A stretch of 64,000 nt of DNA from Octopus sinensis. Its lineage: Eukaryota. Of this stretch, positions 6,110-60,850 are shown piece by piece (position 1 is the first letter of the stretch; every line of letters begins with the position of its first letter). The notes beneath the pieces were generated by a model. It was not told the origin of the DNA. It did no database searches and saw nothing but the letters and a program-made list of their open reading frames with translations. The stretch lies in NCBI RefSeq assembly GCF_006345805.1, contig NC_042998.1, forward strand, positions 35,464,001 to 35,528,000, given 5' to 3'. The position numbers and the translations under genes are program-made.

Positions 6110-7903
6110 GTATTGCTAGTGGGGGGGGCGGTCCTTAGTTCTTTGATCCGTACACGTTTCATCTTCTTCAATGTTTTATGCCTGTGCAAGCTCATAACTA
6201 AAAACTCACAGCTCTCTTTCTTTCGACTGCAAAACTGAGAAACACTCCTCTACCGAATTATGGAACGCTAGCATTCTGGTAATGGCAATGGATTAAAAGA
6301 TAAAGCTTCTGGAAAATACGGCGTTTACGCATTTAGTCATTTATCTTATATTTTCAGATGCATTTCACTTTTCGTAAAAAGCAAAACGCGAAGAATGTTA
6401 ATGTACAATGAGAGAAAGAATTATTTTACCATTTGACACAGAGTGCTTTTTCGAATAAACCCGTCACTCTCCGATAAGTGGTTCTAAACTTTATGAATGT
6501 TTTGTTTTATTTTTTCTCGACACGTTAAAATTCTTTGTTTTTTTTCCCCCCTTTTCTTTTCATTTTATTGATTTTTTGCTGATGTAGTCTTTTCGAATTC
6601 TGGCGATTATCTCTTAGAGTGATTATATTCTATTAATTTTCCTTATTTTCCTTTAAAGAAAGTGAATATTGTTGATGATATATTTCAAGCTAACTACCCC
6701 CAAACGAAAGTTAGATCTATAAACATAAGAATGATTTGTATACTCATTCTCAATAATCGATTTACGATAAAAAGACACAACGCAGCTTTATATTGATCTC
6801 CCTCTTTTGTGTTAATGATTCAAAGCGGCGATTCGTTCGCATGTACTTATCCCTTGCCTTACGCCACTGAATTCAAGATTGGTTAGGCTGACCGAAATTT
6901 GTGTGCCATAACGGAAACAGCTGTAAGGTCTTTCCGTAGTTCTCATTGATCCGTAACACTACTTTGAAACTAAATTTCCAATGTGGACACCTACAAAGCC
7001 AGCGTTTGGGTGCAGCACGTCAAATATTGTTCTGATCTCTTTACAGATATTCTCTAAATTGTAAGATTCCGATTTTATATGGGTGTTGCTTCAATTTTAA
7101 GATTCTTATAGAAGATTATAAAGAAATAACTTGCAAGTAGATTATCTATAGTCAATTGATTTCTTATATAATAGGATGCGCCTTCCTGGAAATCGAAATC
7201 TTGCCATTATTGATTGATGACTACATTACTTAGAACAATCAGTCTTTTATCTTAATTCACTGGAATTAAACCTCGACATTTATAAAGGAATTTAGATTTG
7301 TACTACAAGTAATTAACTTCGTTTCGACAATACCAAATTTCTGTGACTGGAAAGTTCCGTTGTTAGCGAACATTAATTTTGGCGCTATCTCTTTCTCGTT
7401 CAAAGAAGATAACATACAAAATCACTAAGTATTATTTGCAATAATAAACATTAATAATTAATTAGCTGCACTGTATAACAATGATAAAAGCACAACCACA
7501 GACACAGAGGGCAGTTTGATCTATAAATTAATGCGCAAACATCTAAATGAAACCCAAATTGGGCAATCCTTATCCTGCACTACAGTAAACTTACAAGAAG
7601 GAGAAGTTAATGAAGACAACTACTCTGGCCATAGCATTAAACTTAACACAAAACGACTTATTTATAGCGTCATTATCCGACATAAGATTAGAGTGAGGAT
7701 TAAAGACTTCTCCCGATAAATAGTTGGCGTTATAATGAAATAAAGGAACCACTTTCCTCAACAAGTAAGGAATTCACTTTAACAATAGAATATGCATAGT
7801 CCCCCTCCACTGGGATTTGGGGCAATAATGCCGTTACTCAAATGCCCTACGGAATTTAGCATTACACATAGCATTCGTTTGTTTGGGTTAGGAAAATCTT
7901 AGA

Positions 7904-8278
7904 TGGCGGCAAGGTGGCAGAAACGTTAGCACGCCGGGCGAAATGCGTACCCGTATTTCGTTTGCCGCTACGTTCTGAGTTCAAATTACGCCAAGGTCGA
8001 CTTTGCCGTTCATCCTTTCGGGGTCGATTAAATAAGCACCAGTTACGCACTGGGGTCGATGTAATCGACTTAATCCGTTTGTCTATCCTTGTTTGGTAGT
8101 AAAGAAATAGGTATTTCGTCTGCCGTTACGTTCTGAGTTCAAATTCCGCTAAGGTCGACTTTGCCTTTCATCCTTTCGGAGTCGATTAATTAAGTACCAA
8201 TTACGTACTTGGGTCCATCTAATAGATTGACTCCTCCCAAAAAATTTCGGGCCTTTTGCCTAGAGTAGAAAAGATTCT
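7904..8278 (+). mobile_element. SINE family M dimer (tRNA-like head, core, shortened tail A, core, tail B)
   Basis: Head ggcggcaaggtggcagaaacgttagc, B-box-like gagttcaaatt, core gcctttcatcctttcggggtcgat, internal junction aaagaaata|ggtatttcg at ~8109. Confidence 0.85.
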
Positions 8279-8542
8279 TTAAATGGTGGCGAGCTGGCAG
8301 AAACGTTAGCAAGCCGGGCGAAATGTTTAGCGGTATTTTGTCTGTCTTGTGCTTAGTTTAGAAAAGTCCGACGCGTGTTGGTTTAACAGTCGGTAGTTCA
8401 ACAGTGAATACCAAGTATCGAACCTACGTCCGAGTAGTACGGAATGCGTTTCTGTGTTAACATGTATTTCTGCAATAAGTTATTGTTAGATTACCACAAT
8501 CAACTATTTATTTGCATAATATCATTTTATCGTGGCACTCCG

Positions 8543-8912
8543 TCGGTTGCAACGACGAGGGTTCCAATTGATCTGATCTATGGAACAGCCTGCTCGTGAA
8601 ATTAACGTACAAGTGGCTGAGCACTCCACAGACACGTGTACCCTTAACGTAGTTCTCGGGGGAGATTCAGCGTGACACAGAATATGACAAGGCTGGCCCT
8701 TTGAAATACAGGTACAACAGAAACAGGAAGAAAGAGTGAGAGAATGTTGTGGTGAAAGAGTACAGCAAGGTTCGCTGCAACCCCCTACCGGTGCCTCGTG
8801 GAGCTTTAGGTATTTTCGCTCAATAAACACTCACAACGCCCGGTCTGGGAATGGAACCCGCGATCCTACGACCGCGAGTTCGCTGCCCTAACCACTGGGC
8901 GATTGCGTTTCC
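8543..8912 (-). mobile_element. tRNA-derived SINE family R, full length
   Basis: Minus-strand head with A-box (cccagtggttagg) and B-box (ggttccattcc). Near-identical to copies at 26734-27081 and 53831-54170. Confidence 0.85.
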
Positions 8913-9105
8913 AATGCCATTTTACACCAGACGTGTATACCCACGTCATGACTCACAGTCAAACTTGCATCAAACAATTTTTACGAACAAAAATTTAAGA
9001 GTGATTCTGTGTGTCGGTTTGTCCGTAACAAAATATTTTCGTGATCATAGTAACTAAGTTTTCCCACGCAGAGAGACTGATTTCGACCAGCAGTAATACA
9101 TTCTT

Positions 9106-9290
9106 CAGTTCTATATTTAAGAGATGATGAATTATGTACATTTATTATATTATTTGCATTATTTACATTTGACGGATATCTGTCCTAGTTTTGTTTGTTG
9201 TTAACACAGCGTTTCGGCTGATATACCCTCCAGCCTTCATCAGATGTCTTGGGGAAATTTCGAACCTGGGTTCTCATTCCTAAGTTATTT
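9106..9290 (-). mobile_element. Penelope-like terminal repeat fragment with hammerhead motif
   Basis: Reverse complement of 10040-10215. Contains CTGATGA-aggctg...cagcc-GAAAC on the minus strand. Confidence 0.65.
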
Positions 9291-9309
9291 TTCGATGTTG
9301 ATATTATTC

Positions 9310-9371
<62 letters not shown>

Positions 9372-9858
9372 GAGAGAGCAGTGCATGCCATCAAAGTGAC
9401 ACTGGGGTAAAATGTACACTAGGCACATGCATCACAACCATATGAGCAAGACATGATGATCTCATATCACGATAAACATCACATGATCTTGCAGGTGGGG
9501 CCCAGTTAGAATTTTCTTCTGGTCGAGTAACCCATCCCACTCAAAAGGTCCCTGAATAACGGTTGTTTAAGGATGTTGAACGAAACACCCATGTTTCCAA
9601 AGGTGAATTATTCAAACCTCAAAGAATCCTTCTCAACACATGGCTTTGATGCTCCACCACTACTTCTACTCGTGATCAGAGATGCACATATCGTCAGCCA
9701 CTAAGGGACATGCTCAACTGGTTATGGTCAAACAACTGACAAACAAATCTGTGGTATCGAGCAGAATATTTGCTGTAACACATCTTTTATACCAAGACAA
9801 AACAATGTACATGTTAACACTTCTAATCAGTTAAGATCAGAAGCCACGAGAGCCACTG
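9372..9858 (-). mobile_element. Repeat inserted in a (TTA)n tract, probable 3' fragment of an R4/Dong-like LINE
   Basis: Bounded on both sides by (tta)n. A second partial copy at 30803-31093 also follows ttattatt. Dong elements are known to target TAA repeats. No coding motif was recognised. Confidence 0.4.
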
Positions 9859-9862
9859 ATTA

Positions 9863-9925
<63 letters not shown>

Positions 9926-9957
9926 TCACTGCTGAGTTTGATTCCATGCATTGACCC

Positions 9958-10027
<70 letters not shown>

Positions 10028-10039
10028 AACAACAACAAC

Positions 10040-10215
10040 AAAATACCTTAGGAATGAGAACGCAATTTCGAAATTCCCCAAGACACCTGATGAATGCTGG
10101 AGTATATATCAGCCGAAACGTTGTGTTAACAACGAACAAAATGAGAACAGATATTCGTCAAATGTAAATAATGTAAATAATGTACATAATTCCTCATCTC
10201 TTAAATATAGAACTG
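10040..10215 (+). mobile_element. Penelope-like terminal repeat fragment with hammerhead motif
   Basis: gacac-CTGATGA-atgctg...cagcc-GAAA-cgTT-gtgtt at 10082-10127. Confidence 0.65.
10082..10127 (+). ncRNA. Minimal type-I hammerhead ribozyme motif
   Basis: CUGAUGA and GAAA cores, stem I gacac/gtgtt, stem II gctg/cagc, palindromic minimal stem III (acgt). Confidence 0.65.
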
Positions 10216-10864
10216 TATTATGCATAAAACAATTTCAACTAACAAAAATTTTAAAGTGATTCCGTGTGTCGGTTTTTCGGTAACAAAATATTTCCGTGAT
10301 CATAGTAACTATGTTTTCCCACGCAGAGAGATTATTTCGACCAGCAGTTAAACATTTTTTTCTTGTCTTAATTTATTTACGAGTTAAATTATGATTTCCT
10401 GAGATATCAATTCAGTTCAGTGCGCTGCATTTTACCACCTGGAAAACTAATCAATTTTTCGCTTCTTCTGTTTGTCGTTATTCAGTCATTCATTTTTTTT
10501 TTATACCCGCCAACGTAAAAACATTCAAATTTTGTGAGATACGACATTGTCTAACTCTGTGTGTGTCTTTTTTTATCAAATATCTCACTCTTGTTGGGTT
10601 GAACACCTGCATAGGTTCGGCAGTTTATATAGATAATTTTTAACATCTTCCAGCACAAAAAAAATTCGTAGCAATACCAGGGTGCCACCATCATTACCAC
10701 CAATCCGTCTCCCCAGTTCCTTCTTGATAATATTTTAATATTCAATACCATTTTATATAGTCGATTGTTTTTTCTTTTTAGTTTAGTTTAACTTTTGTGC
10801 CAAACTCCTGATCCCACATTTATGTTCGAATGCGAGTGATCACCTTCAATTTCTTGAGAGTAAT

Positions 10865-11446
10865 AAGGCGGCGAGCTGGCAGAATCGTTAGCACGCCGGA
10901 CGAAATTCGTTGCCGTATTTCGTCTGCCGCTACGTTCTGAGTTCAAATTCCGCCGAGGTCGACTTTGCCTTTCATCCTTTCGGGGTCGATAAATTAAGTA
11001 CCAGTTACGCACTGGGGTCGATATAATTGACTTAATCCGTTTGTCTGTCCTTGTTTGTCCTCTCTGTGTTTGGTCCCTAGTGGGTAGTAAAGAAATAGGT
11101 ATTCCGTCTGCCGCTACGTTCTGAGTTGAAATTCCACCGAGGTCGACTTTGCCTTTCATCCTTTCGGGCTTGATAAATTAAGTACCAGTTGCGCACTGGG
11201 GTCGATATAATTGACTTAATCCGTTTGTGTGTCCTTGTTTGTCCTCTGTGTGTTTAGCCCCTTGTGGGTAGTAAAGAAATAGGTATTTCGTCTGTCTTTA
11301 CGTTCTTAGTTCAAATTCCGCTGAGGTTGACTTTGCCTTTCATCCTTTCGGGGTCGATAAATCAAGTACCAGTTGCGTACTGGCGCCGATCTAACCGACT
11401 GGCACCCTCCCGCTAAATTCCGGGTCTTGTGCCTAGACTAGAAAAT
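10865..11446 (+). mobile_element. SINE family M trimer with 17-bp TSD
   Basis: head-core-tailA-core-tailA-core-tailB. aatttcttgagagtaat is present on both flanks. Confidence 0.9.
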
Positions 11447-11542
11447 AATTTCTTGAGAGTAATTCCCTTGTCTTGCACATAAAAAGGTTTTATCGTTTCT
11501 CATGCTTGTGCAATATGGAACTAAAACAAGGTTCTTAATTCT

Positions 11543-11832
11543 TTTATTTGCTTCAATCACTTGACTGCGGCCATGCTGGAGCCCCACCTTTTAGTCGAAC
11601 AAATCGATCCCAGGACTTTTCTTTGTAAGCCTAGTACTTATTTTATCGGTTTCTTTTGCCGAACCGCTATATTGTCAAGTGATGGTGGGGTTGTAAACAC
11701 AGACACAGACATACACACACACACACACAAACATATATATATAGGCGCAGGAGTGGCTGTGTGGTAAGTCGCTTGTTTCCCAACCACATGGTTCCGGGTC
11801 CAGTTCCCCTGCGTGACACCTTGGGCAAGTGC
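11543..11832. mobile_element. SINE family C fragments (3' part on minus, head on plus)
   Basis: ttgactgcggccatgctggagc (tail, minus) and gagtggctgtgtggtaag...accttgggcaagt (head, plus). Confidence 0.75.
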
Positions 11833-11996
11833 ACAAAAAAACTGTTACTCAGAGTTTCACGTTCCCGTTCGTAACTCCGAGTAATAGATTTTTTTGTGAT
11901 GTTTTTGCAGCTTTAATGGTAAACCATATAACTCAACCTCCGGTATTCGAGTACTATTTCTTCCCACCTTGTTTCATATTCATGTGCTTACTTTAA

Positions 11997-12030
<34 letters not shown>

Positions 12031-12113
12031 TAAGGGTAGAAATTGATATTAATCAATTAAAACCAGTGGCCTAGCATATTATTTTAAAAATCCGAAGATT
12101 AAAAATTTTATAC

Positions 12114-12428
12114 ATACAAAAATTAAGAGGAATGACCACTAATAGTGGACAGCCTGTATGCTAGATATAGACGTCAAACTCGTCATTTACCACGAAGAAT
12201 GTGTTCTCAAAAACAAAATTCAGCGAAAACGAAAGTTTAAAAATAAGACAAATGAAAATAATGTTTTTTTTTATTTTCGTATATTTTCATTTGTCTTATT
12301 TTTAAACTTTGGTTTTCGCTGAATTTTGTTTTTGAGAACACATTCTTCGTGGTAAATGACGAGTTTGACGTCTATATCTAGCATACAGGCTGTCCACTAT
12401 TAGTGGTCATTCCTCTTAATATTTGTAT
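12114..12428. repeat. Near-perfect inverted repeat, 147-bp arms and 21-bp spacer
   Basis: 12114-12260 is the reverse complement of 12282-12428 with about 2 mismatches. Confidence 0.9.
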
Positions 12429-12487
12429 ATATATATATATATATATTATATATTATATATATATATATAATATATATATATATATAT

Positions 12488-12700
12488 AGTTAATCTAAAC
12501 ATGAAAACACAAAGAGAAAACACAACAACGCGAGGACGTGGAACAAGTATAGTGTTATTGGACGCTCAGGAAAGGAAAGAAAGAAGGAGGATTTAACGTT
12601 TCGAGCGGAGCTCTTCGTCAGAAACATAGGAAAAGGAAAGATCCAAGGAAGGGAAGACGGAGGAAAAAAATCGCCAACGATACACACGCGGTCACATTTT
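12488..12700 (-). mobile_element. Hammerhead-bearing ~210-bp repeat (family P, Penelope pLTR-like)
   Basis: Near-identical to 21505-21711 and 50621-50832. Contains ctgacgaagagctccgctcgaaacgtt and abuts (TA)n. Confidence 0.75.
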
Positions 12701-12702
12701 GA

Positions 12703-12735
<33 letters not shown>

Positions 12736-13486
12736 TGTATGTATCTATGTTTGTCTTTGTTTCTATGTTTGTCCCCACCAATACTTGACAACTGGTGTTG
12801 GTGTGTTTATGTCCCAATAACTTAGAGGTTCGGCTATATACATCGATAGAGTAAGTACCAGGCTTTAAATAAATAAGTACCCCAGCATGGCCGCAAGCTA
12901 ATTCCTCAAACAAGTAAAAGTAAAAAAGATAAAATATATTTGGACAACAACATCCTTATTATGGGTTCTCGGAACTAAACGAAAAAAAAGACTTACGCAA
13001 ATCAGGCAAACTGGCGGATTTCATAAAGCGTCGAGCTAAGGGCTGTCGGAAATCTCACAAGAACGTGAAGGAATATCAATAATAAAACCTGATGCTTTAG
13101 TAACAAAATTACAAGAAAGATTGTTTGAAAAAATTGTTTTAACAGAAAAATACAGAAAAATGGACAACTATTATCCTTCGCCCAAATTTACTCGAAAATG
13201 AATGAAAAGGAAAAAAAAGAGAGAGAATATTTTAGGCAATAGTTCTGATTACAATGAGAAGAGATAACAATGTGATTTTTCTAGTGCTTCTTGGAGAACG
13301 AGTAGAAATAGAATGAGAAAAGCGTTGGAAGCAGAATTGTGCGTAGGAATTCTATCGGTGATTGAATCAAGAAAGATGGAGATGCAGACGAAATGAAATA
13401 ATAGGAGCGAAACTGAGTTTCAAAAATGTGAAAACAAGATTTCCAACTATGAAATAGAAATAATATATGCGTTCATTGTGTGAATC

Positions 13487-14212
13487 GTTTCTACTATAGG
13501 CACAAGGCCTGGAATTTGGGAGCGGTTAAGTCGATTGCATCGACCCCAGTACTCAGCTGGTACTTAATTTATCGACCCCGAAAGGATGAAAGGCAAAGTC
13601 GACCTCGGCGGAATTTCAACTCAGAACATAAAGACAGACGAAATACTACTAAGCATTTTGCCAGGCGTGCTAACGTTCCTTATTTCTTTACTGCTCACAA
13701 GGGGCTACACACAGAGGGGACAAACAAGGACAGACAAAGGGATTAAGTCGATTACATCGATCCCAATACGCAACTGGTACTTAATTTATCGACCTCGAAA
13801 GGATGAAAGGCAAAGTCAACCTCGGCGGAATTTGAAAACAGAACGTAAAGACACAAGGCCTGGAATTTGGGAGGGGTTAAGTCGATTGCATCGACCCCAG
13901 TACTCAACTGGTACTTAATTTATCGATCCCGAAAGGATGAAAGGCAAAGTCGACCTCAGCCGAATCTGAACGCAGAGGCAGACGAAATACCTATTTCTTT
14001 ATTACCCACAAGGGGCTAAACACGGAGGGAACAAACAAGGACAGACATAGGTATTAAGTCGATTACATCGACTCCAGTTTGTAACTGGTACTTAATTTAT
14101 CGACCCCGAAAGGATGAAAGGCAAAGTCGACCTCGGCGGAATTTGAACTCACAACGTAACGCAGACGAAATACCGCTAAGCATTTCGCCCGGCGTGCTAA
14201 CGATTCTGCCAG
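13487..14212 (-). mobile_element. SINE family M composite (four cores, mixed tails A and B)
   Basis: Four copies of atcgaccccgaaaggatgaaaggcaaagtcgacctc. Head at ~14160-14212. Confidence 0.85.
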
Positions 14213-15099
14213 TATCCGATAATTATCGAGTGTTTTGTTCCTAAACCGTAACACCCTCCAGCAGAGGTTGCCAAATCACTGCTCACCATCTTCTCCTGGT
14301 TTCCAGCTTAACTCCTTTCTTGCTCCATAACCAACAAGATGCTCTTTATGTTGCCTCTCCGATCCTCTGAGTACAGCGTCGCTTCGCTCTTTTCCTCTCA
14401 TTCCAATGGCAGTAAGTATCGTCCGTACTGACTGGGTTGGAAATTCCCAACAGCCAACTTAGATCGGGAAAGGTCATGACTGTCATTTCAAAAAGAAAAT
14501 GGGTAACACGATTAGACAGAGCTAAAAGCGGGCTTTAAAATGATATAAAAAGTCAAAGCAATTTAACAAAAATTAACGAAAATTAATTTGAGAATACATA
14601 TTTAAAACCAAAATTTAAAATTCCGCAAGAACTTTCTTAACCTAATATAAGATAGCAAATAATATCGAACTATAGTATTAGATACAAGGTGTCTGGAGGA
14701 AAAAGATGGATTGGTCCTGTTCAGATTGTCATTGATCATAGGTTTGGTCAATCAGGACCGACTCCGAATAAATAACATAACGACAACACTAGCACTACGG
14801 CCAGAATTAACATCAGTTAAGTTCCTCCAGATCTCCTTTTGACTATAGTTGTACCTCATTGAGTTAAAAACAAACAGACGTTCATATTTCTTTTCTAGCG
14901 GAAGAAAACAAAATCTACTTTAAATATTGAAAATACAATGTCACCTATCGTTTAATTCGTTAACAATTCTTTTAGCGTGGCAGTAATTTATCTTTTTGTC
15001 AGACAGAATCAGTCAAAGAATTAGCGGTACTGAAAGTATTTTAGAATTTCGGTTCTTAAAATTAAACACTAATGATAATACGTTCAAACTTGTTAACAG

Positions 15100-19125: not shown

Positions 19126-19511
19126 TTCTTTTCTACTCTAGGCAAAAGGCCCAAAATTTTGGGGAGAGGGAGCCAGTCGATTATATCCACCCCAACTGGT
19201 ACTTATTTTATCGACCCCGAAAGGATGAAAAGTAAAGTCAACCTCGGCGGAATTTAAACATAAAGACAGACGAAATACCTATTTCTTTACTACCTACAAG
19301 GGGCTAAACACAGAGAGGACAAACAAGGACAGACAAACGAATTAAGTCGATTATATCGACCTCAGTGCGAAACTGGTACTTATTTAATCGACCCCGAAAG
19401 GATGAAAGGCAAAGTCAATCTCGGCGGAATTTGAACACAGAACGTAAAGACAGACGAAATACCGCTAAACATTTCGCCCAGCATGCTAACGGTTCTGCCA
19501 GCTCGCCATCT
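19126..19511 (-). mobile_element. SINE family M dimer with 15-bp TSD
   Basis: acctatgtatatatt on both flanks. Internal junction cgaaatacc|tatttcttt. Confidence 0.85.
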
Positions 19512-19699
19512 TATACCTATGTATATATTAAAGTATTAATTTGAAAGGGACAAGTTCCAAGGTCAATAATACTTCTCATCAAAGCCGACATATATCTAAA
19601 CACAGACCCTCCTTAATTCAGGCTCAAATATACTAGAAATAGCAGCCACTTGAACTATAGGATTGCAGGGAACCCAAGTCTGAGCAGACAACCTAGTAA

Positions 19700-20640: not shown

Positions 20641-20836
20641 TCTTTCTTTTTATTGGATTCATTGAGGACTTCCCTTCTGGATTATTGTGAATTATTCTCA
20701 TCAGCTTGGACTTCTATCTGTATGTATTTATGCAATTACTTATCCGACTTTGATTTAAGCACGGAATTACACTATTATGTATATATATATGTTTTTGTAT
20801 GTTATGTTCTCGCATGCTTATAATGGCTTATATATA

Positions 20837-21068
20837 TTTCTTTACTACCCACAAGGGGCTAAACACAGAGGGGACAAACAAGGACAGACAAACGGATTAA
20901 GTCGATTATATCGACCCCAGTGCGAAACTGGTACTTTATTTATCGACCCCGAAAGGATGAAAGACAAAGTCGACCGCGGCGGAATTTGAACTCAGAACGT
21001 AACAGCAGACGAAATACGGCTACGCATTTCGCCCGTCGCGTTAACGTTTCTGCCAGCTCGCCGCCTTA
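20837..21068 (-). mobile_element. SINE family M monomer (tail A) with TSD
   Basis: ataatggcttatatat on both flanks. Confidence 0.9.
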
Positions 21069-22682: not shown

Positions 22683-22910
22683 AAGGCGGCGAGCTGGCAG
22701 ACACGTTAGCGCGCCGGGTGAAATGCTTAGCTGTATTTCGTCTATTGTTATGTTCTGAGTTCAAATTCCGCCGAGGTCGACTTTGCCTTTCATCCTTTCG
22801 GGGTCGATAAAGTACCAGTTTCGCACTGGGGTCGATATAATCGACTTAATCCCTTTGTCTGTACTTGTTTGTCCCCTCTATGTTTAGCCCCTTGTGGGCA
22901 ATGAAGAAAT
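22683..22910 (+). mobile_element. SINE family M monomer (tail A)
   Basis: Full head, core and tail A, ending aagaaat before (TA)n. Confidence 0.9.
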
Positions 22911-25788: not shown

Positions 25789-26733
25789 AAATTAGGGAGT
25801 AAATCCAAACTTACAGGGAAAAATTAGATTTAGGATTAAATCTAATTTTATAGTATAAATATATATATTATATAAATTAGAGATAAAACCACTATTAGGC
25901 AACTCAAACAGTGAAAATCATAAACCAATACATAGAAATAAAATTAATTAATAAAAAATATATAAAATTCAAAAGTTAAAATTTTAAAAATTCTTAATAT
26001 TAATAAGTTTCAAAATATATTCTTTTCTAGAAGGTATTGGAATATCCTTCAAAGATGTCCAAATTTGCCGAGGTTGACTTTGCTTTTCATCCTTTCGGAT
26101 GAAAGGCAAAGTCGACCTCGGCGGAATTTGAACTCAGAAAGTAACGACAGACGAAATACCGCTAATGTATATACAATGTTTATAGTTGATAAAGGTACTA
26201 AATTAAATATGTTATAGAGTAAAGAATTAGGACAGCGTTTACTTCAACAACGCCACAAAATGAGGAAAACTTTTCCAAGAAAAGCAAGAAGGAAGTATGC
26301 AATGGTTTTGTGACCAGGAATTAAAACTTTGGTCTTCATGTTCTTTTCCAAATTCGCCATCTTATGTGAATCTATATAATCCCAAACAATTCTAATTTCG
26401 GTGACTTAATTCGGCTTTAACACGGCTAAGTATTCGCGATACCTGTTAAAAAAAAATTAAAGAAACGGCGAATCTCTTCGGTCGTTCTCGCACAGTTTTA
26501 CCTTTTAGTTACGAAGAGAGTTTTTTACACACGAACACAAACATACAACTCACAAACACATACATAGACACACTCACACCTCACACACAAGCAAACCTCT
26601 TTCTCGCAAGCTTTGCTCCCTTTGCCTTCCTCCTTCTACACACTTAGTGGTGGACTACTATAAGCACTGGACAAGAGATTTTCAATGAAAACAGACTTCA
26701 TTTTCTTCCAACTTGTCACATTAGTGTACTACA

Positions 26734-27788: not shown

Positions 27789-28178
27789 AAGGCGGCGAGC
27801 TGGCAGAAAGGTTAGCACGCCGGGCGAAATGCTTTGTGGTACTTCGTCTGCCGTTACGTTCTGAGTTCAAATTCCGCCGAGGTCGACTTTGCCTTTCATC
27901 TTTTCGAGGTCGATTAAATAAGTACCAGTTACGCACTGGGGTCGATGTAATCGACTTTATCCGTTTGTCTGTCCTTGTTTGTCCTTTCTGTGTTTAGTCC
28001 CTTGTCGGTAGTAAAGAAATAGGTATTTCGTTTGTCTTTACGTTCTGAGTTCAAATTCCGCTGAGGTCGACTTTGCCTTTCATCCTTTCGGGGTCGATAA
28101 ATTAAGTACCAGCTGCGTACTGGGGTCGATCTATTCAATTGCCCCCCTCCCCAAAAATTTCGGGCCCTGTACCCTGTA
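27789..28178 (+). mobile_element. SINE family M dimer
   Basis: head-core-tailA|ggtatttcg-core-tailB. Confidence 0.9.
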
Positions 28179-32384: not shown

Positions 32385-32610
32385 TTGGTTTCAAATTGTG
32401 GCACAATGCCAGCAATTTCGGGGAAGAGTTAAGTCGATTTCTCAACTGGTACTTATTTTATCGACCTCAATAAGATGAAACACAAAGTTGACCTTGGCGG
32501 AATTTGAACTCAGAACGTAAAGACAGAAGAAATACCTATTTCTTTACTACCCACAAGAGGCTAAACACAGAGAGGACAGACAAACGGATTAAGTCGATTA
32601 TATCGGCCCC
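32385..32610 (-). mobile_element. Truncated SINE family M dimer
   Basis: Junction gaaatacc|tatttcttt at ~32537. Confidence 0.7.
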
Positions 32611-33095
32611 ATGTGGTTGGGGTGAAATGTAGCATACGTAGCCTAACATTGAGCCCCTGGACCCAGCACCCCACCCATGGCAACTGTCCAGTGTACCCCT
32701 GCGTTAAAGTGGTTATATGCCTTTAATGATTGTTCCAGCAAAGCTGACATCAGAACTAAACAACAAAAACGGTAGCAGCAGCAATTCATCCTGAAGAGAT
32801 GGACGTCCACATTTGACTAATGACATTTGAAATAGTATATAGAAGACCTAAACTGGATTTATATTTCTTACATTAACGCCGAACAGATTATTTGTATAGG
32901 AAGGAATGGTGTCGATTAAATTGCCATTCCTGTAGTAATGTTTATATTTTAAAATTTTCATTAGTACAAAAGACCACCAATAGAATTCGAACTCAGAAAA
33001 AAAATCAGAATTCAACACTAACTCGCTATATGTTCTGCCACTTCATTTCAATGCGTACAACTGGCATTGTGTGTCATTATCAATCTCCACGATGA

Positions 33096-33743
33096 AAGGT
33101 GGCGAGCTTGGCCAAGTCGTTAGCACGCTGGACGAAATGCTTAGCTACGTCGGTCGCTACGTCCGTCGCTACATTCTGCGTTCAAATTCCGCCGCGGTCG
33201 ACTTTGCCTTTCATCTTTTCGGAATTGACAAATTAAGTACCAGTTGCGTACTGGGGTCGATCTAATCGACTATTCCCCCTCCCCAAAATTTCGGGCCTTG
33301 TGCTTATAATAGAAAAGATTATTAATCTCCACGATGAAAGGCGACAGGCTGGCAGAAACGTTAGCAAGCTGGGCGAAATGCTTAGCGGTATTTCGTCTGC
33401 CGCTACGTTCTGAGTTCAAATTCCGCCGAGGACGACTTTGCCTTTCATTCTTTTGGGGCCGATAAATTAAGTAACACTAAAATACTGGGGTTGATGTAAT
33501 CGACTCGTCCTCTCCGCAACAATTTCAGACCTTGTGTCTATAGTATAAAGGATTATTGGCAATTTCGGGGGAAGGAGTAAATTACATCAATCCCAATTCT
33601 CAACTGGTATTTATTTCTCGACCCCGAAAGGATGAAAGGCGAAGTCGACGCCTGCGGCATTCAATCTCAGATCATAAATTCGGAATAAATGCCGCTAAGC
33701 ATCTTCTCCGATGCGGTAATGATTCTGTCAGCTTTCTGCCTTA
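33096..33743. mobile_element. Cluster of three SINE M copies (two plus, one minus)
   Basis: aatctccacgatgaaagg precedes both plus copies (TSD-like). The minus copy at 33557-33743 is flanked by aaaggattatt. Confidence 0.8.
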
Positions 33744-34539: not shown

Positions 34540-34774
34540 GGCGAGCGAGCGAGCTGGCAGAAAGGTTAGCACGCCGGGCAAAATGCGTAGCCGTATTTCG
34601 TCTGCCGTTACGTTCTGAGTTCAAATTCCGCCGAGGTCGACTTTGCCTTTCATCCTTTCGGGGTCGATAAATTAAGTACCAGTTGTGCACTGGGGTCGAT
34701 GTAATCGATTTAATCCCTTTGTCCGTCCTTGTTTGTCCCCTCTGTGTTTAGCCCCTTGTGAGCAATAAAGAAAT
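34540..34774 (+). mobile_element. SINE family M monomer (tail A) with ~20-bp TSD
   Basis: atatattactactaccacta on both flanks. Confidence 0.9.
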
Positions 34775-37546
34775 ATATATTACTACTACCACTACCATCA
34801 ATAGCAACAACGAGTGTTTCTCGACATTGGCTGTGTGATAAAGAAGTTTTCTTCCCAGCCACATGGATCTGAGTTCAATCCCACTGCGTGGCACTTATGG
34901 CAAGTGTCTTCTACTACAGACTCGAGCCAGCCAAAGACTTGTGAGGGGATTTGGTACACGGAAACTGAAAGAAGCCTATTGTATATATGTATGTATATCT
35001 GTGTGTTTTTGTGTCTGTGTTTTCCTCTACTACCGCTTGACTACCGGTGTTTGTTTGTTTATATCCCCATAACTTAGCGATTCTGCAAAAGAGTATTCTA
35101 CTGAATCTCTTCGTCTAATCCACTCGCTTGACAAAATCTCATCAAGTCAAGCCGTTACTTTACTTTAGTAATGTGGAGGTTTCTATTTGAGAAAAGAACG
35201 GGTAGATACAAGAGAATCAGGAATGCCGCATCTCAAATACGGTATCTTTGAGCGCAAAAGAGTTTTACAAAGAATTCGAACAATCAAAGTCAAAAACAAA
35301 TTTCCGTCAAGGTCGACTTTACCGTCTCAAATAAAATAAAATAACAAATATAAAATCAATCATGTGTTTTAACTTACTAGGAACAATCATTTTTATTTGT
35401 ATATTATTATATGCGATGAATATCCTCAACAAATCACAAAGATCTTGGCACATTATACTTCATTTTTGGAATTTGATCAAGACTTATAGGTACTTCCTTA
35501 AGTCTAATAATTCGAACATAATTAAAACACCCAGGATCTCTTCTTAATGATGATCAACTATATAATGTTATCGTCACAGCCCATTCATTCATGATAATTA
35601 TTTTTCTTGTTATACCCGTTATAATCGGAGGATTATATATTTATTTTATTTGCCGCTCCCACAAAATTTCAGGCCCTGTGCTTGTAGTAGAAAGGATTAT
35701 TATATTTATAATCAAAATATTCATCACACAAGCATTATAATTTTCTTTGTCCGAAAAGCAGGAAGAACAGCCAAACAAAACAGTGTGGATGTTTCTGCTT
35801 CAAATATAGTTAATTACCCTATATACATACAACCGTGGGCACGTACATAACACACGTATTTACAAACCCATATGTGCATATATCCATATATGCACAAATA
35901 TAAACACGTACATCCTAATATACATGTACCTGTATGCACGCATTTGTATATACAGAGGGCGCTAATGATTGTATACATATATATAGATAATTATTACGGT
36001 GAAAAATTTAAATAATGATGAATAAAGCTTGTATGGTTTATGCCTTGAACGATAAGGGTAATGGATCGGGAAAACACATAAAATGCAAAATATGCTGTGG
36101 GGAAAATTGTATGAACAAAATTCGACAATCGAGAAAAGACACACATAAAGTGTCCAACAAAGACTGGATTATTTTAAAAGATCGATATTTGATTGGCAAA
36201 GTTTATATGGAGCAACCAACCTGTTTTTGACGTTTATCGTCTGCTTTTGTCATTTGTCTTTTCTTACTGTTTTCCGGACAAAGAACATTTTTTATGTCTG
36301 TGTGATTAATATTTTCATTAATAATACATTATAATATAATATAATAATATATATCATAATATATAGATAGATAATATATTTTTTCTCTGTGCTTTTTTCG
36401 GGCCTTCTACACATTTTTTTTGCAAACTGAATATGGTTTGTCTTTTAGTGTGTGTGTGTTTCTTCGAGCCTTGCATTTTCATTACTATCTAATTTGGTTT
36501 ATTTAATATCCACTCAATGTTTTGTTTTGCCCTTCTGTTTATTGAAATCATCATTCTAACATTGTTTGTTATCAAATTACCTCTTCTCCCAGCCCTTAGC
36601 TGCAGGTTATAAATGATACTTGAATTTCAACGTTATGCAGCCATCTTGTGCTTCTTGCTTCCTTCCCTCTCTCTTCTAATTTATAACTTTAGTATTAACT
36701 TGTTACCGGTTCAACTATGCGTGAGGCATATTCGAACCCGTAAGAAAGCCATTCATTGTGTTTTGTCATGGGCAAAATTTCTTGCTGTAAACAAATAGGT
36801 GTAAATACACCGACTCGGCTCACAGCGTCCCCTATCCAGACTGTTAGATGCATACATTTCGGAGTGGTTATCTCTTCTTCAGCAAACGAGACCGGAAAAG
36901 CAGACGCTGCGAGCTGGCACGAGAGACGGCTATCCTTACGATATTCCCGCCATAAATAGTTGCACTTTAATATATTTCTTTCCATAGCGGCGAACTGGTA
37001 GAATCATTAAGCAATCGATTTAAACCCTTTCTCGAAATTGCTGGCCTTGTGCCAAAATTCGAGACTAATATTATATTTCTTTTCTCCCTCTTCTTTCTCT
37101 CACATAGCGGTTTGTTATTTTAATTCGTCCTTTTCTTCTTTTCCTTTAGTTTATCATTAGTAATTTTTCTGTAGCATTCATTCGCCCTTATTTCGATTTT
37201 TTGGCTTAATTCAATCATATTCTATTTTAGTCACTTGCAATATCTTATTTCAGACAATGTCTATCGTATTCTATATATTTAATTATATTAAATTATATGT
37301 GTGTGAGTGTGTACATATATGTATGCATAAGAATGTATGTGTGTGGGTGCGTATAAATGCAAACACACACATGCATTTTTGTGAAGGTGTATGGTCTAGT
37401 TGTCAGGACATACCAGTAACATCAGTGGGTCAGCCGTATAACGGACCAGTGTTTCGTTCAGGGAATAACCGTGAGCTTGCAGCCTAAACGCCTTGAAAAT
37501 TTGGATGACATCAGACTTCATGAACCTGTACACTCGAGGAGGCATG

Positions 37547-45786: not shown

Positions 45787-46208
45787 TATTTCTTTACTGC
45801 CCACAAGGGGCTAAACATAGAGGGAACAAACAAGGACAGACAAACGGATTAAGTTGATTACATCGACCCAGTGCGTAACTGGTACTTATTTAATCGACCC
45901 CGAAAGGATGAAAGGCAAAGTCGACCTCGGCGGAATTTGAACTCAGAATGTAACGGCAGACGAAATTCCTATTTCTATTTCTTTATTACCCACAAGGGGC
46001 TAAACACAGAGGGGACAAACAAGGACAGACATAGGTATTAAGTCGATTACATCGACCCCAGTGCGTAACTGGTACTAAATTTATCGATCCCGAAAGGATG
46101 AAAGGCGAAGTCGACCTCGGCGGAATTTGAACTCACAACGTAACGACAGACGAAATACCGCTAAGCATTTCGCCCGGCATGCTAACGATTCTGCCAGCTC
46201 GCCGCCTT
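45787..46208 (-). mobile_element. SINE family M dimer, both units with tail A
   Basis: tailA-core|junction (cgaaattcc|tatttctatttcttt)|tailA-core-head. Confidence 0.9.
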
Positions 46209-56122: not shown

Positions 56123-56314
56123 TGTGAGTGTGTATATATATAATATATATATTAATATATATGTATATATATATATGTTATGTGTATGTATGATATATGT
56201 ATGGGTGTATTATGTATATGTATATCTGTATGTGGTATGTATATGTGTATGTATATGTATGTATGTATATGTATGTATGTATATGTATGTATATGTATAT
56301 TGTAGTATGTATAT

Positions 56315-56348
<34 letters not shown>

Positions 56349-57556
56349 ATGTATATATTATTGGATATAAATGTATGTATATTCTATATATGTATGTATA
56401 TTATGTATATGTATGTATATGTATATATATGTATGTATATGTATATATATTATCTATGTATATGTATGTATATATATATATGATGTATATGTATGTATAT
56501 GTATGTATGTATATTATATATATATAGGTATATTATGTATATATATTATGTATGTATGTATATATATATATATGTATATGTATGTATATATATATGTATG
56601 TATATGTATGTATATATATATATAGTATATGTATGTATAATATTATATTATGTATATGTATGTATTATTATGTATATGTATGTATATATATATATGTATA
56701 TGTATGTATATATATATAATGTATAGTATGTATAATATATTATATGTAATGTATGTATTATATATATGTATATGTATGTATATATATATATGTATATGTA
56801 TGTATATATTATATTTATATGTATGTATATATATATAGTATAATGTTATGTATATATATATATGTATAGTATGTATATATATTATATGTTATATGTAGTA
56901 TATATTATATATGTATATGGTATATATATATATGTATATGTATGTATATATGTATCTGTATGTATATATGTATATGTATGTATATATATATATGTATATG
57001 TATGTATATATGTATGTATATGTAATGTATATATGTATGTATATATTAAGTGTATATGTATGTATATGTATGTATATGTATTATGTATAATGTATGTATA
57101 TATATGTGTGTATGTATGTATATGTATGTATATATATATGTATATGTATGTAATATTATGTATATATATATGTATATGTTATATGTATGTATATGTATGT
57201 ATATATATATGTATATGTATGTATGTATATGTATGTATGTATGTATGTATATGTATGTATGTATATATATGTATGTATGTATATGTATGTATATATATAT
57301 ATATGTCTATGTATGTATGTATATGTATGTATATATATATATATATATGTATATGTATGTATGTATATGTAGTATATATATATATATATATGTATATGTA
57401 TGTGTATATAGTATGTATATATGTATGTATATATGTATATGTATGTATATATTATATGTATGTTATATGTATATGTATGTATATATGTATATGTATGTAT
57501 TATGTATATGTATGTATATATTATATGTATGTATATATGTATATATGTGTGTATAT

Positions 57557-57587
<31 letters not shown>

Positions 57588-58723
57588 GTATATATGTATA
57601 TATGTGTATATGTATGTATGTATATGTGTATATGTATGTATATGTGTATATGTATGTATATGTGTATATGTATGTATATGTGTGTATGTATGTATATGTA
57701 TGTATATGTGTATATGTATGTATATGTGTATATGTATGTATGTATATGTATATATGTATGTATATGTATATATGTATATGTATGTATATATGTATATATA
57801 TATGTATGTATATATGTATGTATATATGTATATGTATATATATGTATGTATATATGTATATGTATATATATGTATATATATGTATATATATGTATATGTA
57901 TATATATGTATATGTATATATATGTATATGTATATATATGTATATATATTATATGTATATATATGTATATGTATATATATGTATATGTATATATATGATA
58001 TATATATGTATATATATGTATATATATATGTATATATATAATATATATGTATATGTATATGTATATGTATATATATATGTATATTATATTATATGTATAT
58101 GTATATGTAATATATATGTATATATATATGTATATATGTATGTATATGTATATATATGTATATATATATGTATATATGTATGTATATGTATATATATATG
58201 TATGTATATGTATATATGTATGTATATGTATATGTGTATATGTATATATGATGTATATATGTATGTATATATATATGTATATATATATGTATATATATAT
58301 GTATATGTATATATGTATATGTATATATATTATATGTATATATATATATAGTATATGTATATATATATGTATATGTGTATATGTATATGTATATGTATAT
58401 ATATATACATACATGTATAGTGTATATATACATATACATGTATATGTATATATATACATATACATATACATGTATATGTATATGTATATATATATGTATA
58501 TGGATATATATATAGGTATATGTATATGTATATTATATGTATATATTATAGTATATATATATATGTATATATATATGTATATATATATGTATGTATATGT
58601 ATATATATATATGTATATATATATATGTATATATATATGTATATATATATGTATGTATATGTATATATATATATGTATATATATATGTATATATATATGT
58701 ATGTATATGTATATATATATATG

Positions 58724-58754
<31 letters not shown>

Positions 58755-58900
58755 GTATATGTATATATATGTATATGTATATATATGTATGTATGTATAT
58801 GTATATATATGTATATGTATATATATGTATGTATATGTATGTATATGTATGTATATGTATATATGTGTATAATATATATATATATATATATAATATGTGT
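56123..58900. repeat. ~2.8-kb compound (TA)n/(TATG)n/(TATATG)n microsatellite field
   Basis: Alternating pyrimidine/purine sequence, almost C-free on the plus strand. Confidence 0.97.
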
Positions 58901-58902
58901 GT

Positions 58903-60076: not shown

Positions 60077-60850
60077 AAGGCGATGAGCTGGCAGAAACGT
60101 TAGCACGCCAAGCAAAATGCTTAGCGGTATTTCGTCTGCCGTTACGTTCTGAGTTCAAATTCCGCCGAGGTCAACTTTGCCTTTCATCCTTTCGGGGTCG
60201 ATAAATTAAGTACCAGTTACGCACTGGGGTCGATGTAATCGACTTAATCCATTTGTCTGTCCTTGTTTGTCCCATCTGTGTTTAGCCCCTTGTGGGTAGT
60301 AAAGAAATGGGTATTTCGTCTGCGTTACGTTCTGAGTTCAAATTCCGCCGAGGTCGACTTTGCCTTTCGTCCTTTCGGGGTCGATAAATTAAGTACCAGT
60401 TACGCACTGGGGTCGATGTAATCGACTTAATACCTATGTCTGTCCTTGTTTGTCCGCTCTGTGTTTAGCCCCTTGTGGGTAATAAAGAAATAGGTATTTC
60501 GTCTGCCGATACGTTCTGAGTTCAAATTCCGCCGAAGTCGACTTTGCCTTTCATCCTTACAGGGTCGATAAAATAAGTGCCAGTTAAACACTGGGTCGAT
60601 GTAATCGACTCATCCCCTCTCCCAAAATAGCAAAATTTGAAACCATTATTATTGTTGTTGCTGCTGCTCCTGCTCCTGCTGCTGCTGCGAGCTGGCAGAA
60701 TGGTTAGCACGCCAATCAAAATGCTTTGCGGCATTTCGTCCGTCTTTACGTTCTGAGTTCAAATTCCACCGAGGTTGACTTTGCCTTTCATCCTTCCGGG
60801 GTCGATAAATTAAGTTCCGTTTACGCACTGAGGTCGATGATATTGACATA
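60077..60850 (+). mobile_element. SINE family M trimer (60077-60650) plus a further monomer (60687-60850)
   Basis: Junctions aaagaaatg|ggtatttcg (~60309) and aaagaaata|ggtatttcg (~60492). Confidence 0.88.

What the first reader, a model, noticed from the sequence alone, without database searches (positions are those of the whole stretch)
10865..11446. SINE arrays that always re-enter their own head at the same position: a candidate self-targeting SINE
Seen: family M occurs as monomers, dimers and trimers. Internal units start at the same position inside the head, giving tailA-AAGAAATA|GGTATTTCGTCTG at about 8109, 11097, 11281, 13991(-), 19279(-), 28021, 32537(-), 45970(-), 60309 and 60492. 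Only tail A precedes these junctions, while the terminal unit usually carries tail B. TSDs (17 bp here, 15 bp at 19126-19511) enclose whole arrays. Tail-A monomers sit beside TA-rich sites. One exception is a tail A abutting a different head position at ~13679. Inference: tail-A copies insert site-specifically into existing family members and resolve the 5' end by homology, so arrays grow one ~185-bp unit at a time. Alternatives are amplification of one ancestral dimer with unequal recombination, or RT template jumping.
Basis: partly seen in the sequence, partly recalled or inferred. Interest (0 to 1): 0.8.

Follow-up and report, generated by a model that had tools for sequence, protein, structure and literature searches.

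The report
Jumping gene that targets itself
A short jumping gene with tens of thousands of copies inserts at one fixed spot inside older copies of itself, likely because its RNA tail base-pairs with that spot, and this likely builds most of the head-to-tail repeat arrays seen across this genome.

Summary
Self-insertion is seen directly: in 10 of 20 'head + duplication + full copy' loci the two target-duplication copies start at this site and share letters of an older resident copy. In seamless B/C-ended arrays the last unit is the older one (46 vs 5), trimers age 5'-to-3', and positions form no clades. So targeting likely comes from RNA-target pairing, not a site-specific enzyme. Inferred, not shown: the RNA extension, the seamless 5' join by homology, and the share of arrays copied whole. 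Arrays of five or more units grow further by local duplication. 'Terminal unit usually tail B' does not hold generally. New variant of known TPRT biology; resembles R2-type homology joins.

The parts
10848..10864 (+). Outer TSD, left copy (17 bp)
   Evidence: identical to 11447-11463
10865..10913 (+). tRNA-like head, positions 1-49, A1-lineage type (G45, followed by C50); A-box-like motif 10877-10887; second self-target site C|AGAA at head 16|17 (10880|10881)
   Evidence: A/B-box labels are from recalled Pol III consensus; a sister copy folds tRNA-like, z -2.69
10898..10925 (+). 12-bp inverted repeat in the head; the main self-target site (49|50) lies at the 3' edge of its 4-nt loop
   Evidence: sequence; fold of sister copy 46100-46208(-)
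10914..11097 (+). Unit 1: body (B-box-like motif 10941-10951, central conserved domain) + tail A1; youngest unit, divergence 0.000
11098..11281 (+). Unit 2: headless body + tail A1, begins at junction AAGAAATA|GGTATT; divergence 0.057
11282..11446 (+). Unit 3: headless B-type body + tail B (CTTGT loop 11426-11430); likely the original resident copy; divergence 0.057
11447..11463 (+). Outer TSD, right copy
7905..8272 (+). Dimer A1|B, junction 8109|8110
13488..14212 (-). Compound array: A1|B-like unit (junction 13991), then a tail-A2-type unit joined to head position 17 (about 13680), ending in tail B
19129..19512 (-). Dimer A1|B with 15-bp TSD; both units start with the B-type TCTT
20835..21067 (-). 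Tail-A1 monomer (G45 head) at a TATA-type target with TSD
22683..22910 (+). Tail-A2 monomer beside a TA run
27789..28173 (+). Dimer A1|B, junction 28021|28022
32443..32611 (-). 5'-truncated A1 unit joined to a tail-C-type unit, junction 32536
34549..34775 (+). Tail-A2 monomer with TSD overlapping the tail end (AAATA)
45787..46208 (-). Dimer A1|A2-type, junction with doubled GAAATA at 45969
60077..60650 (+). Trimer A1|A1|C, junctions 60309|60310 and 60492|60493

Best explanation
Copies of this tRNA-headed SINE carrying tail variant A1 insert at one fixed site (C|GGTATTTCG, head position 49|50) inside older copies of the same family, likely because their RNA runs on past the tail into GGUAUUU... 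and base-pairs with nicked target DNA, and a likely homology-based 5' join then leaves seamless head-to-tail arrays. Steps: (1) shown: A1 ends sit at target duplications beginning GGTA(TTT), in unique DNA and in SINE heads; A2 ends sit at AG(AA) sites. (2) shown for a minority of loci: full-length A1 copies flanked by a duplication of an older resident's GGTATTTCG... (3) inferred: a LINE endonuclease nicks mostly at Y|R steps and priming needs RNA-primer pairing; the extension comes from read-through of an existing junction, so each array can template more self-seeking RNA. (4) inferred: because the new cDNA ends in a head homologous to the 65 bases upstream of the nick, it pairs with and largely replaces the resident head, erasing the inner duplication; the outer TSD is the resident's. 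(5) shown: arrays of five or more units were then homogenised or extended by local duplication.
For: Target rule: 2,843 of 31,160 non-GGTATTT A1 ends continue GGTA[ACG] (9.1% vs 0.18% background); 15 of 30 such loci had a TSD, 11 with GGTA in both copies. In non-self A1 ends starting with G (53 of 91) matches to GGTATTTCG by position are 53,45,47,40,32,27,24,8,13. Variant specificity: A1 43.3% vs A2 4.3% (579/13,392) to GGTATTT; A2 8.3% (1,109) vs A1 0.24% (130) to AGAAWCGTTAG; unselected sample 36 of 71 vs 0 of 27, and 0 of 71 vs 6 of 27. Target class tracks lineage: G45 head in 16 of 17 TATA-target A1 monomers vs 16 of 63 G-target ones. Direct self-insertions: 73 genome-wide matches; of 20 distinct loci examined 16 have an A1 junction downstream and 10 share non-standard letters between the two duplication copies. 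Age order: seamless B/C-ended arrays last 0.072 vs first 0.034, 46 older / 5 younger of 57, p=4e-8; A-ended 40/18 of 65, p=0.005; trimers 0.023, 0.036, 0.064 (n=29). Outer TSDs of arrays differ at about 4.6% of sites vs 2.3% for A1 monomers (p=0.03). Residents are of all tails and ages, variants mostly singletons. No position clades: 71 changes vs 74.9 +/- 3.4 shuffled. An antisense site predicted by the rule (T|GGTACTT) is hit 261 times.
Against: The duplication-bearing form is rare (3 of 134 arrays outside the set picked for it), so the seamless majority is tied to self-insertion by inference. Seamless heads are mostly donor-type (C50 in 14 of 57 B/C-ended arrays vs 0 of 56 B monomers) and sharing of the resident's T16 is not significant (10/51 vs 8/77, p=0.19; binned test negative for dimers): whole-array copying from many source arrays would give the same. 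The antisense site matches 6 of 7 letters yet is used about 90-fold less, and heads are hit about tenfold more than unique GGTATTT (31 junctions/54 heads vs 4/101), so 7-nt pairing alone is not enough. At the second site only 1 of 8 head-duplication loci was a TSD insertion. The focal TSD is perfect and its units 2 and 3 are equally diverged. 75 of 150 arrays hold a run of 4 or more T that could stop Pol III. No RNA data; partner LINE not found. Many loci were picked by exact patterns (young bias); the tree has little resolution.
Confidence: 0.72

Rival explanations
1. Self-insertion only seeds source arrays; most arrays in the genome are whole multimers transcribed through by Pol III and retrotransposed as one piece by their last tail.
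For: One TSD encloses whole arrays; heads are donor-type; 75 of 150 arrays have no run of 4 T; L218 has three units between the duplication copies; 11 of 30 trimers have near-identical units 1 and 2.
Against: Last units carry twice the divergence, including CpG decay (0.114 vs 0.057), mostly as singletons; 11 of 11 arrays ending in the old tail C have an older last unit; outer TSDs are more diverged than those of A1 monomers.
Confidence: 0.15
2. Insertion is as described, but the preference is set by the enzyme or DNA structure (a different LINE endonuclease for A1 and A2, or nicking at the 12-bp head hairpin or in open Pol III chromatin), not by RNA-target pairing.
For: The site lies at the loop edge of a 12-bp inverted repeat; heads are hit about tenfold more than equal 7-mers and about 90-fold more than the antisense site.
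Against: A1 and A2 differ by two bases and keep the same CTTGT-loop hairpin yet have reciprocal targets; the A2 target AGAAAT repeats its own tail end; target class is linked to head lineage within A1; unique GGTA sites lack the hairpin.
Confidence: 0.2
3. One ancestral dimer was amplified and unit number varied by unequal recombination (the explanation offered for similar bivalve arrays).
For: Junction is invariant; arrays of 5 or more units share private variants along the whole unit.
Against: No position clades; last units come from tails A1, A2, B1, B2 and C of different ages; dimer partners are not each other's near relatives (median rank 0.67); duplication-bearing insertions at the same base exist; the same GGTA rule operates in unique DNA. 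It explains only the long arrays.
Confidence: 0.04
4. RT template jumping between two RNAs at insertion time makes the junction.
For: Template jumps are established for LINE RTs (PMC6895275, section 12 read); partial head duplications inside one TSD occur here.
Against: Both partners would be equally young at insertion; last units and outer TSDs are older; it does not explain GGTA-starting TSDs in unique DNA.
Confidence: 0.04

Closest known systems
TSD-(SINE)n-TSD arrays of the blood clam Scapharca broughtonii (Martelossi et al. 2024, PMC11481361; section 15 and passages read)
   Same: First unit with complete tRNA head, following units truncated at one head position, one TSD pair around the array.
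   Different: There internal tails are also truncated, about 3% of copies are involved, and unequal recombination is the suggested cause; here tails are complete, about half of A1 ends are junctions, and insertion scars plus age order point to repeated insertion.
SINE-derived satellites (sSat) of squamates; Dip multimers of jerboa (Vassetzky et al. 2023, PMC10702118; abstract, background, discussion read)
   Same: Tandem units shorter than the SINE, about 185 bp, longer terminal unit, homogenised long arrays.
   Different: sSats are ascribed to duplication by recombination and are subtelomere-biased; Dip multimers are of full-length copies. No self-targeted insertion is described in what I read.
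R2 (and R1) site-specific non-LTR elements (PMC6895275, section 12 and passages read)
   Same: Co-transcribed target sequence on the RNA; 5' join by strand invasion or recombination with homologous upstream target; RNA-target pairing noted for R1Bm.
   Different: R2 encodes a site-specific endonuclease and targets rDNA; this is a non-coding SINE whose preferred target is itself and whose specificity follows a tail variant.
L1/Alu priming by RNA-primer complementarity, 'snap-velcro' (PMC3649969, passages read); annealing-type 5' joins of LINEs (PMC4760211, passages read)
   Same: About 4-10 nt of RNA-target pairing shapes target choice; TSDs of about 15 bp; annealing can trim the 5' end.
   Different: The pairing sequence is not poly(A) but a mixed sequence identical to the element's own interior.
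CORE-SINEs, octopus OR1 (listed as CORE-SINE in PMC4824008, passages read)
   Same: tRNA-like head, shared central domain, exchangeable tails; the resemblance of the central domain to CORE and to octopus OR1/OR2 is recalled.
   Different: Not tested by alignment: no reference sequence could be obtained.

Membership tests
tRNA-derived SINE (SINEBase definition, PMC3531059) | short (<1 kb), interspersed, at least 100 copies | tested here: met
   monomer 215-233 bp; 54,934 exact tail matches
tRNA-derived SINE (SINEBase definition, PMC3531059) | at least 60% identity to a tRNA over 60 nt | tested here: inconclusive
   ARAGORN 0 genes; no tRNA hit in Rfam at E<=10; A/B-box-like motifs present and tRNA-like fold z -2.69
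tRNA-derived SINE (SINEBase definition, PMC3531059) | retroposition hallmarks: TSD, defined 5' start, tail | tested here: met
   TSDs of 7-23 bp, median 15 (n=41); 51 of 85 A1 monomers with TSD
tRNA-derived SINE (SINEBase definition, PMC3531059) | Pol III transcription | not testable with these tools
   no RNA holder listed
CORE-SINE / octopus OR1-OR2 | central domain homologous to CORE; identity to OR consensus | not testable with these tools
   recalled resemblance only; reference paper and supplements not held
Dimeric/trimeric (complex) SINE family like Alu | fixed multimer amplified from a master, units form position clades of equal age | tested here: not met
SINE-derived satellite (sSat) | at least four internal units, homogenised within locus | tested here: met
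   only for the long arrays (L031, 10 units); not for the focal trimer or dimers
SINE-derived satellite (sSat) | subtelomeric bias | not tested
   no positional analysis run
R2-type site-specific element | own site-specific endonuclease and single target | tested here: not met
   non-coding; many unique-DNA targets
R2-type site-specific element | 5' join by homology with upstream target | tested here: inconclusive
   seamless arrays with mostly donor-type heads fit it; not separable from whole-array copying
SINE with LINE-derived tail | tail shared with a partner LINE | tested here: inconclusive
   none of 11 orphan tail-A ends lay on a LINE; 3' ends of 4 RT elements did not match; three tails share a CTTGT-loop hairpin

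The most novel reading that the evidence does not exclude
A heritable, RNA-programmed self-targeting loop: one chance insertion of a SINE into its own head created a junction whose read-through RNA carries a guide to that same site, so the family retargets itself to roughly half of its insertions without any protein change, seamlessly rewrites old copies' heads with young promoters, and seeds 185-bp satellites genome-wide; target specificity is inherited through the 3' flank of each source copy.
Probability: 0.5. Interest if true: 0.85.

Novelty: new variant of a known kind. Interest (0 to 1): 0.72.

Why it matters
If right, it gives a concrete insertion-based route from dispersed SINEs to tandem repeats, where the papers read invoke recombination, and shows that a non-coding element can acquire and pass on target specificity through its RNA end alone. 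It also offers tens of thousands of natural cases for studying homology-driven 5' joining in target-primed reverse transcription, a safe-harbour strategy (jumping into oneself) for a very abundant SINE, and a warning for repeat annotation and SINE dating, since one locus holds units of different ages.

Tried and rejected
Laying Logan contigs of four other runs (X2, X4, X8, X12) on window 7600-14400 to find unit-number alleles: uninformative, contigs break at the repeat and joints come from other loci; no RNA holder listed. Partner LINE: not found among orphan tails or 3' ends of RT elements in fetched loci. Prediction that first and last unit share the resident's first 15 bases: not supported overall, so the simplest 'anneal at the TSD end' model was dropped. 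RNA-derived letters overriding the target at the 3' junction: 4 of 15 TSDs differ in the first 3 bases, close to what mutation gives, inconclusive. TSD form at the second site: 1 of 8. Tail hairpins are not more stable than shuffles (z -1.3 to 0.2). Rfam and ARAGORN gave nothing. Single master dimer and template jumping considered and rejected as main cause. Literature searches for a self-targeting SINE found none (octopus SINE searches); the library lacks most subscription papers, and PMC15861, PMC1448713, PMC1074724 and the SINEBase supplements were not available, so prior description cannot be excluded.

Full report
Observation. The array at 10865-11446 is a head (49 bp) followed by three bodies; units 1 and 2 end in tail A and unit 3 in tail B, inside a perfect 17-bp TSD. 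All ten junctions cited exist. The genome (G000, 2.72 Gb) holds 54,934 exact copies of the 24-mer end of the main tail variant (A1...GGGTAGTAAAGAAATA); 23,774 continue GGTATTT, of which only 959 continue with a purine, so at least about 90% are junctions into a SINE body. In 1.054 Mb taken without selection (79 spread 10-kb stretches plus the window and 200 kb beside it) tail-A elements were 57 monomers, 19 dimers, 5 trimers and 3 tetramers; the 27 arrays ended in B 11 times, A 11, C 3, unclassified 2. The host is probably an octopus and the element probably a CORE-type SINE related to OR1/OR2; this is recalled resemblance, not tested.

Anatomy. The head has A- and B-box-like motifs (labels recalled) and folds tRNA-like, with a 12-bp hairpin whose loop edge is the junction site, position 49|50. 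Internal units therefore lack the A box. Three tails (A, B, C) share a body and a small hairpin with loop CTTGT. Divergence from the commonest letter at 70 shared columns orders them: A1 0.031, A2 0.041, B1 0.087, B2 0.132, C about 0.13.

The target rule. Listing what follows every tail-A end showed that A1 monomers in unique DNA sit at TSDs that begin GG(TATT). Genome-wide 2,843 of the 31,160 A1 ends not followed by GGTATTT continue GGTA[ACG], 9.1% against 0.18% background; 15 of 30 fetched loci had a recognisable TSD, 11 with GGTA in both copies (10 had no head found, 5 no TSD). The base before the TSD is mostly a pyrimidine (31 of 41 counted). Matches to GGTATTTCG fade after position 7. Tail A2 (...GGGCAATAAAGAAATA) behaves reciprocally: 579 of 13,392 go to GGTATTT, 1,109 to AGAAWCGTTAG, a second site at head 16|17, which A1 uses 130 times. 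AGAAAT repeats A2's own tail end. A1 also hits an antisense site in its body 261 times. Within A1, TATA-target copies carry the G45 head in 16 of 17 cases and G-target copies in 16 of 63: target class travels with lineage. The simplest reading is that the RNA's 3' extension pairs with the primer strand, as shown for L1 poly(A) (PMC3649969, passages). Against a pure 7-nt rule: heads are occupied about tenfold more than unique GGTATTT sites and about 90-fold more than the antisense site, so longer pairing, the hairpin, chromatin or whole-array copying must add to it.

Direct self-insertions. A search for head end + GGTATTTCG + up to 10 bases + a new full head gave 73 places. Of 30 loci fetched, 20 were distinct; 16 have an A1-type tail followed by GGTATTTCG downstream and in 10 the upstream and downstream copies share letters that differ from a young unit, for example L216 (15 of 15 identical, 3 such letters) and L218 (16 of 16, 5 letters, three units in between). 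The resident is old (0.110 vs 0.034 for the insert, 9 of 10). Four loci did not fit (L210, L217, L222; L230 has a junction with a deletion), and several show tandem growth of the 65-bp head-plus-duplication unit. The same search at the second site gave 17 places; only 1 of 8 examined was a TSD insertion.

Seamless arrays. Only 3 of 134 arrays outside that set keep the inner duplication. In the 132 seamless arrays the last unit is older: 46 vs 5 of 57 ending in B or C, 40 vs 18 of 65 ending in A; 29 trimers average 0.023, 0.036, 0.064; the focal array reads 0.000, 0.057, 0.057. Outer TSDs of arrays are recovered less often (30-41% vs 60%) and differ at about 27 of 591 sites vs 17 of 729 for A1 monomers (p=0.03; counts summed by hand, test). 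On a tree of 135 tail-A units, position labels change 71 times vs 74.9 +/- 3.4 shuffled; first vs middle 23 vs 21.7 (short sequences, weak resolution; middle vs monomer 17 vs 21.9 and first vs terminal 18 vs 23.2 show slight structure). Dimer partners are not near relatives (median rank 0.67 of all units, n=43), 11 of 30 trimers and most arrays of five or more are; the 10-unit array L031 shares private variants across units. So short arrays look like successive additions at the front, long ones like later local duplication. Selection note: most arrays came from loci picked by exact patterns, which favours young arrays but not a within-array age difference.

How the inner duplication is lost is inferred. 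The head and first 15 bases are mostly donor-type: C50 in 14 of 57 B/C-ended arrays vs 0 of 56 B monomers, A21 in 32 of 57 vs 16 of 56, and the resident's T16 appears in the first unit in 10 of 51 arrays vs 8 of 77 (p=0.19). Head divergence is intermediate. This fits pairing of the cDNA end with the 65 homologous upstream bases and replacement of most of the resident head, as proposed for R2 with upstream rRNA sequence (PMC6895275, section 12) and in line with annealing-type 5' joins (PMC4760211, passages). It also fits whole-array retrotransposition from many source arrays, which I cannot exclude for part of the arrays; half of the arrays (75 of 150) have no run of four T.

Comparison and novelty. 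The architecture is described in a bivalve (PMC11481361, section 15) and SINE-derived satellites in reptiles (PMC10702118, abstract, background, discussion), both explained by recombination. A recent Octopus vulgaris repeat annotation (PMC13282606, passages) does not discuss SINE arrays in the passages found. PMC4758252, PMC4824008 and PMC3531059 (passages) gave definitions only. Searches found no self-targeting SINE; coverage of older and subscription papers and of supplements is incomplete. Each mechanistic step has precedent; their combination in a SINE that targets its own head at this scale was not found in print. Verdict: real, first reading supported with amendments, new variant of a known kind, interest 0.72.

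Noticed in passing
L203, L205, L210, L225; G000:C3430:1373-2203: The 65-67-bp head-plus-duplication unit left by self-insertion itself expands into tandem arrays (up to 11 listed matches in one contig), a second SINE-derived minisatellite.
   Followed up: partly
L301, L304-L308: Elements whose first ~30 head bases are duplicated inside a single TSD, suggesting re-priming or a template jump at the 5' end.
   Followed up: partly
window 33096-33549 (+): Two full-length tail-B copies in tandem separated by a third copy of the TSD (TSD-SINE-TSD-SINE form).
   Followed up: no
window 26057-26162: Two body fragments in inverted orientation joined at the central domain, forming a palindrome.
   Followed up: no
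window 45969 (-); L076: Junction variant with GAAATA doubled (9 of 189 junction strings), suggesting RT slippage at the tail end or a sub-lineage.
   Followed up: no
L144-, L222, window 13680: Tail B also appears to join at the head 16|17 site (AGAAAAGAAT + CGTTAG), so tail-target matching may hold for tail B too; B and C TSDs often begin AAT/ATT like their tail ends.
   Followed up: partly
L051:7718-8905 (-), L055, L069, L092, L066, L070: Other retroelements in fetched DNA: an RT with a weak PHD match and (GAT)n end, R4/Dong-like RT elements ending in (TAA)n (clade label recalled), an RT ending in (GAAAT)n, and an LTR-type RT-RNase H ORF.
   Followed up: partly
L239 and L241: Two loci 876 kb apart on C1 show the same array sequence: recent segmental duplication or assembly duplicate.
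   Followed up: no
window 56131-58902: 2.8-kb degenerate TA/TG microsatellite block.
   Followed up: no
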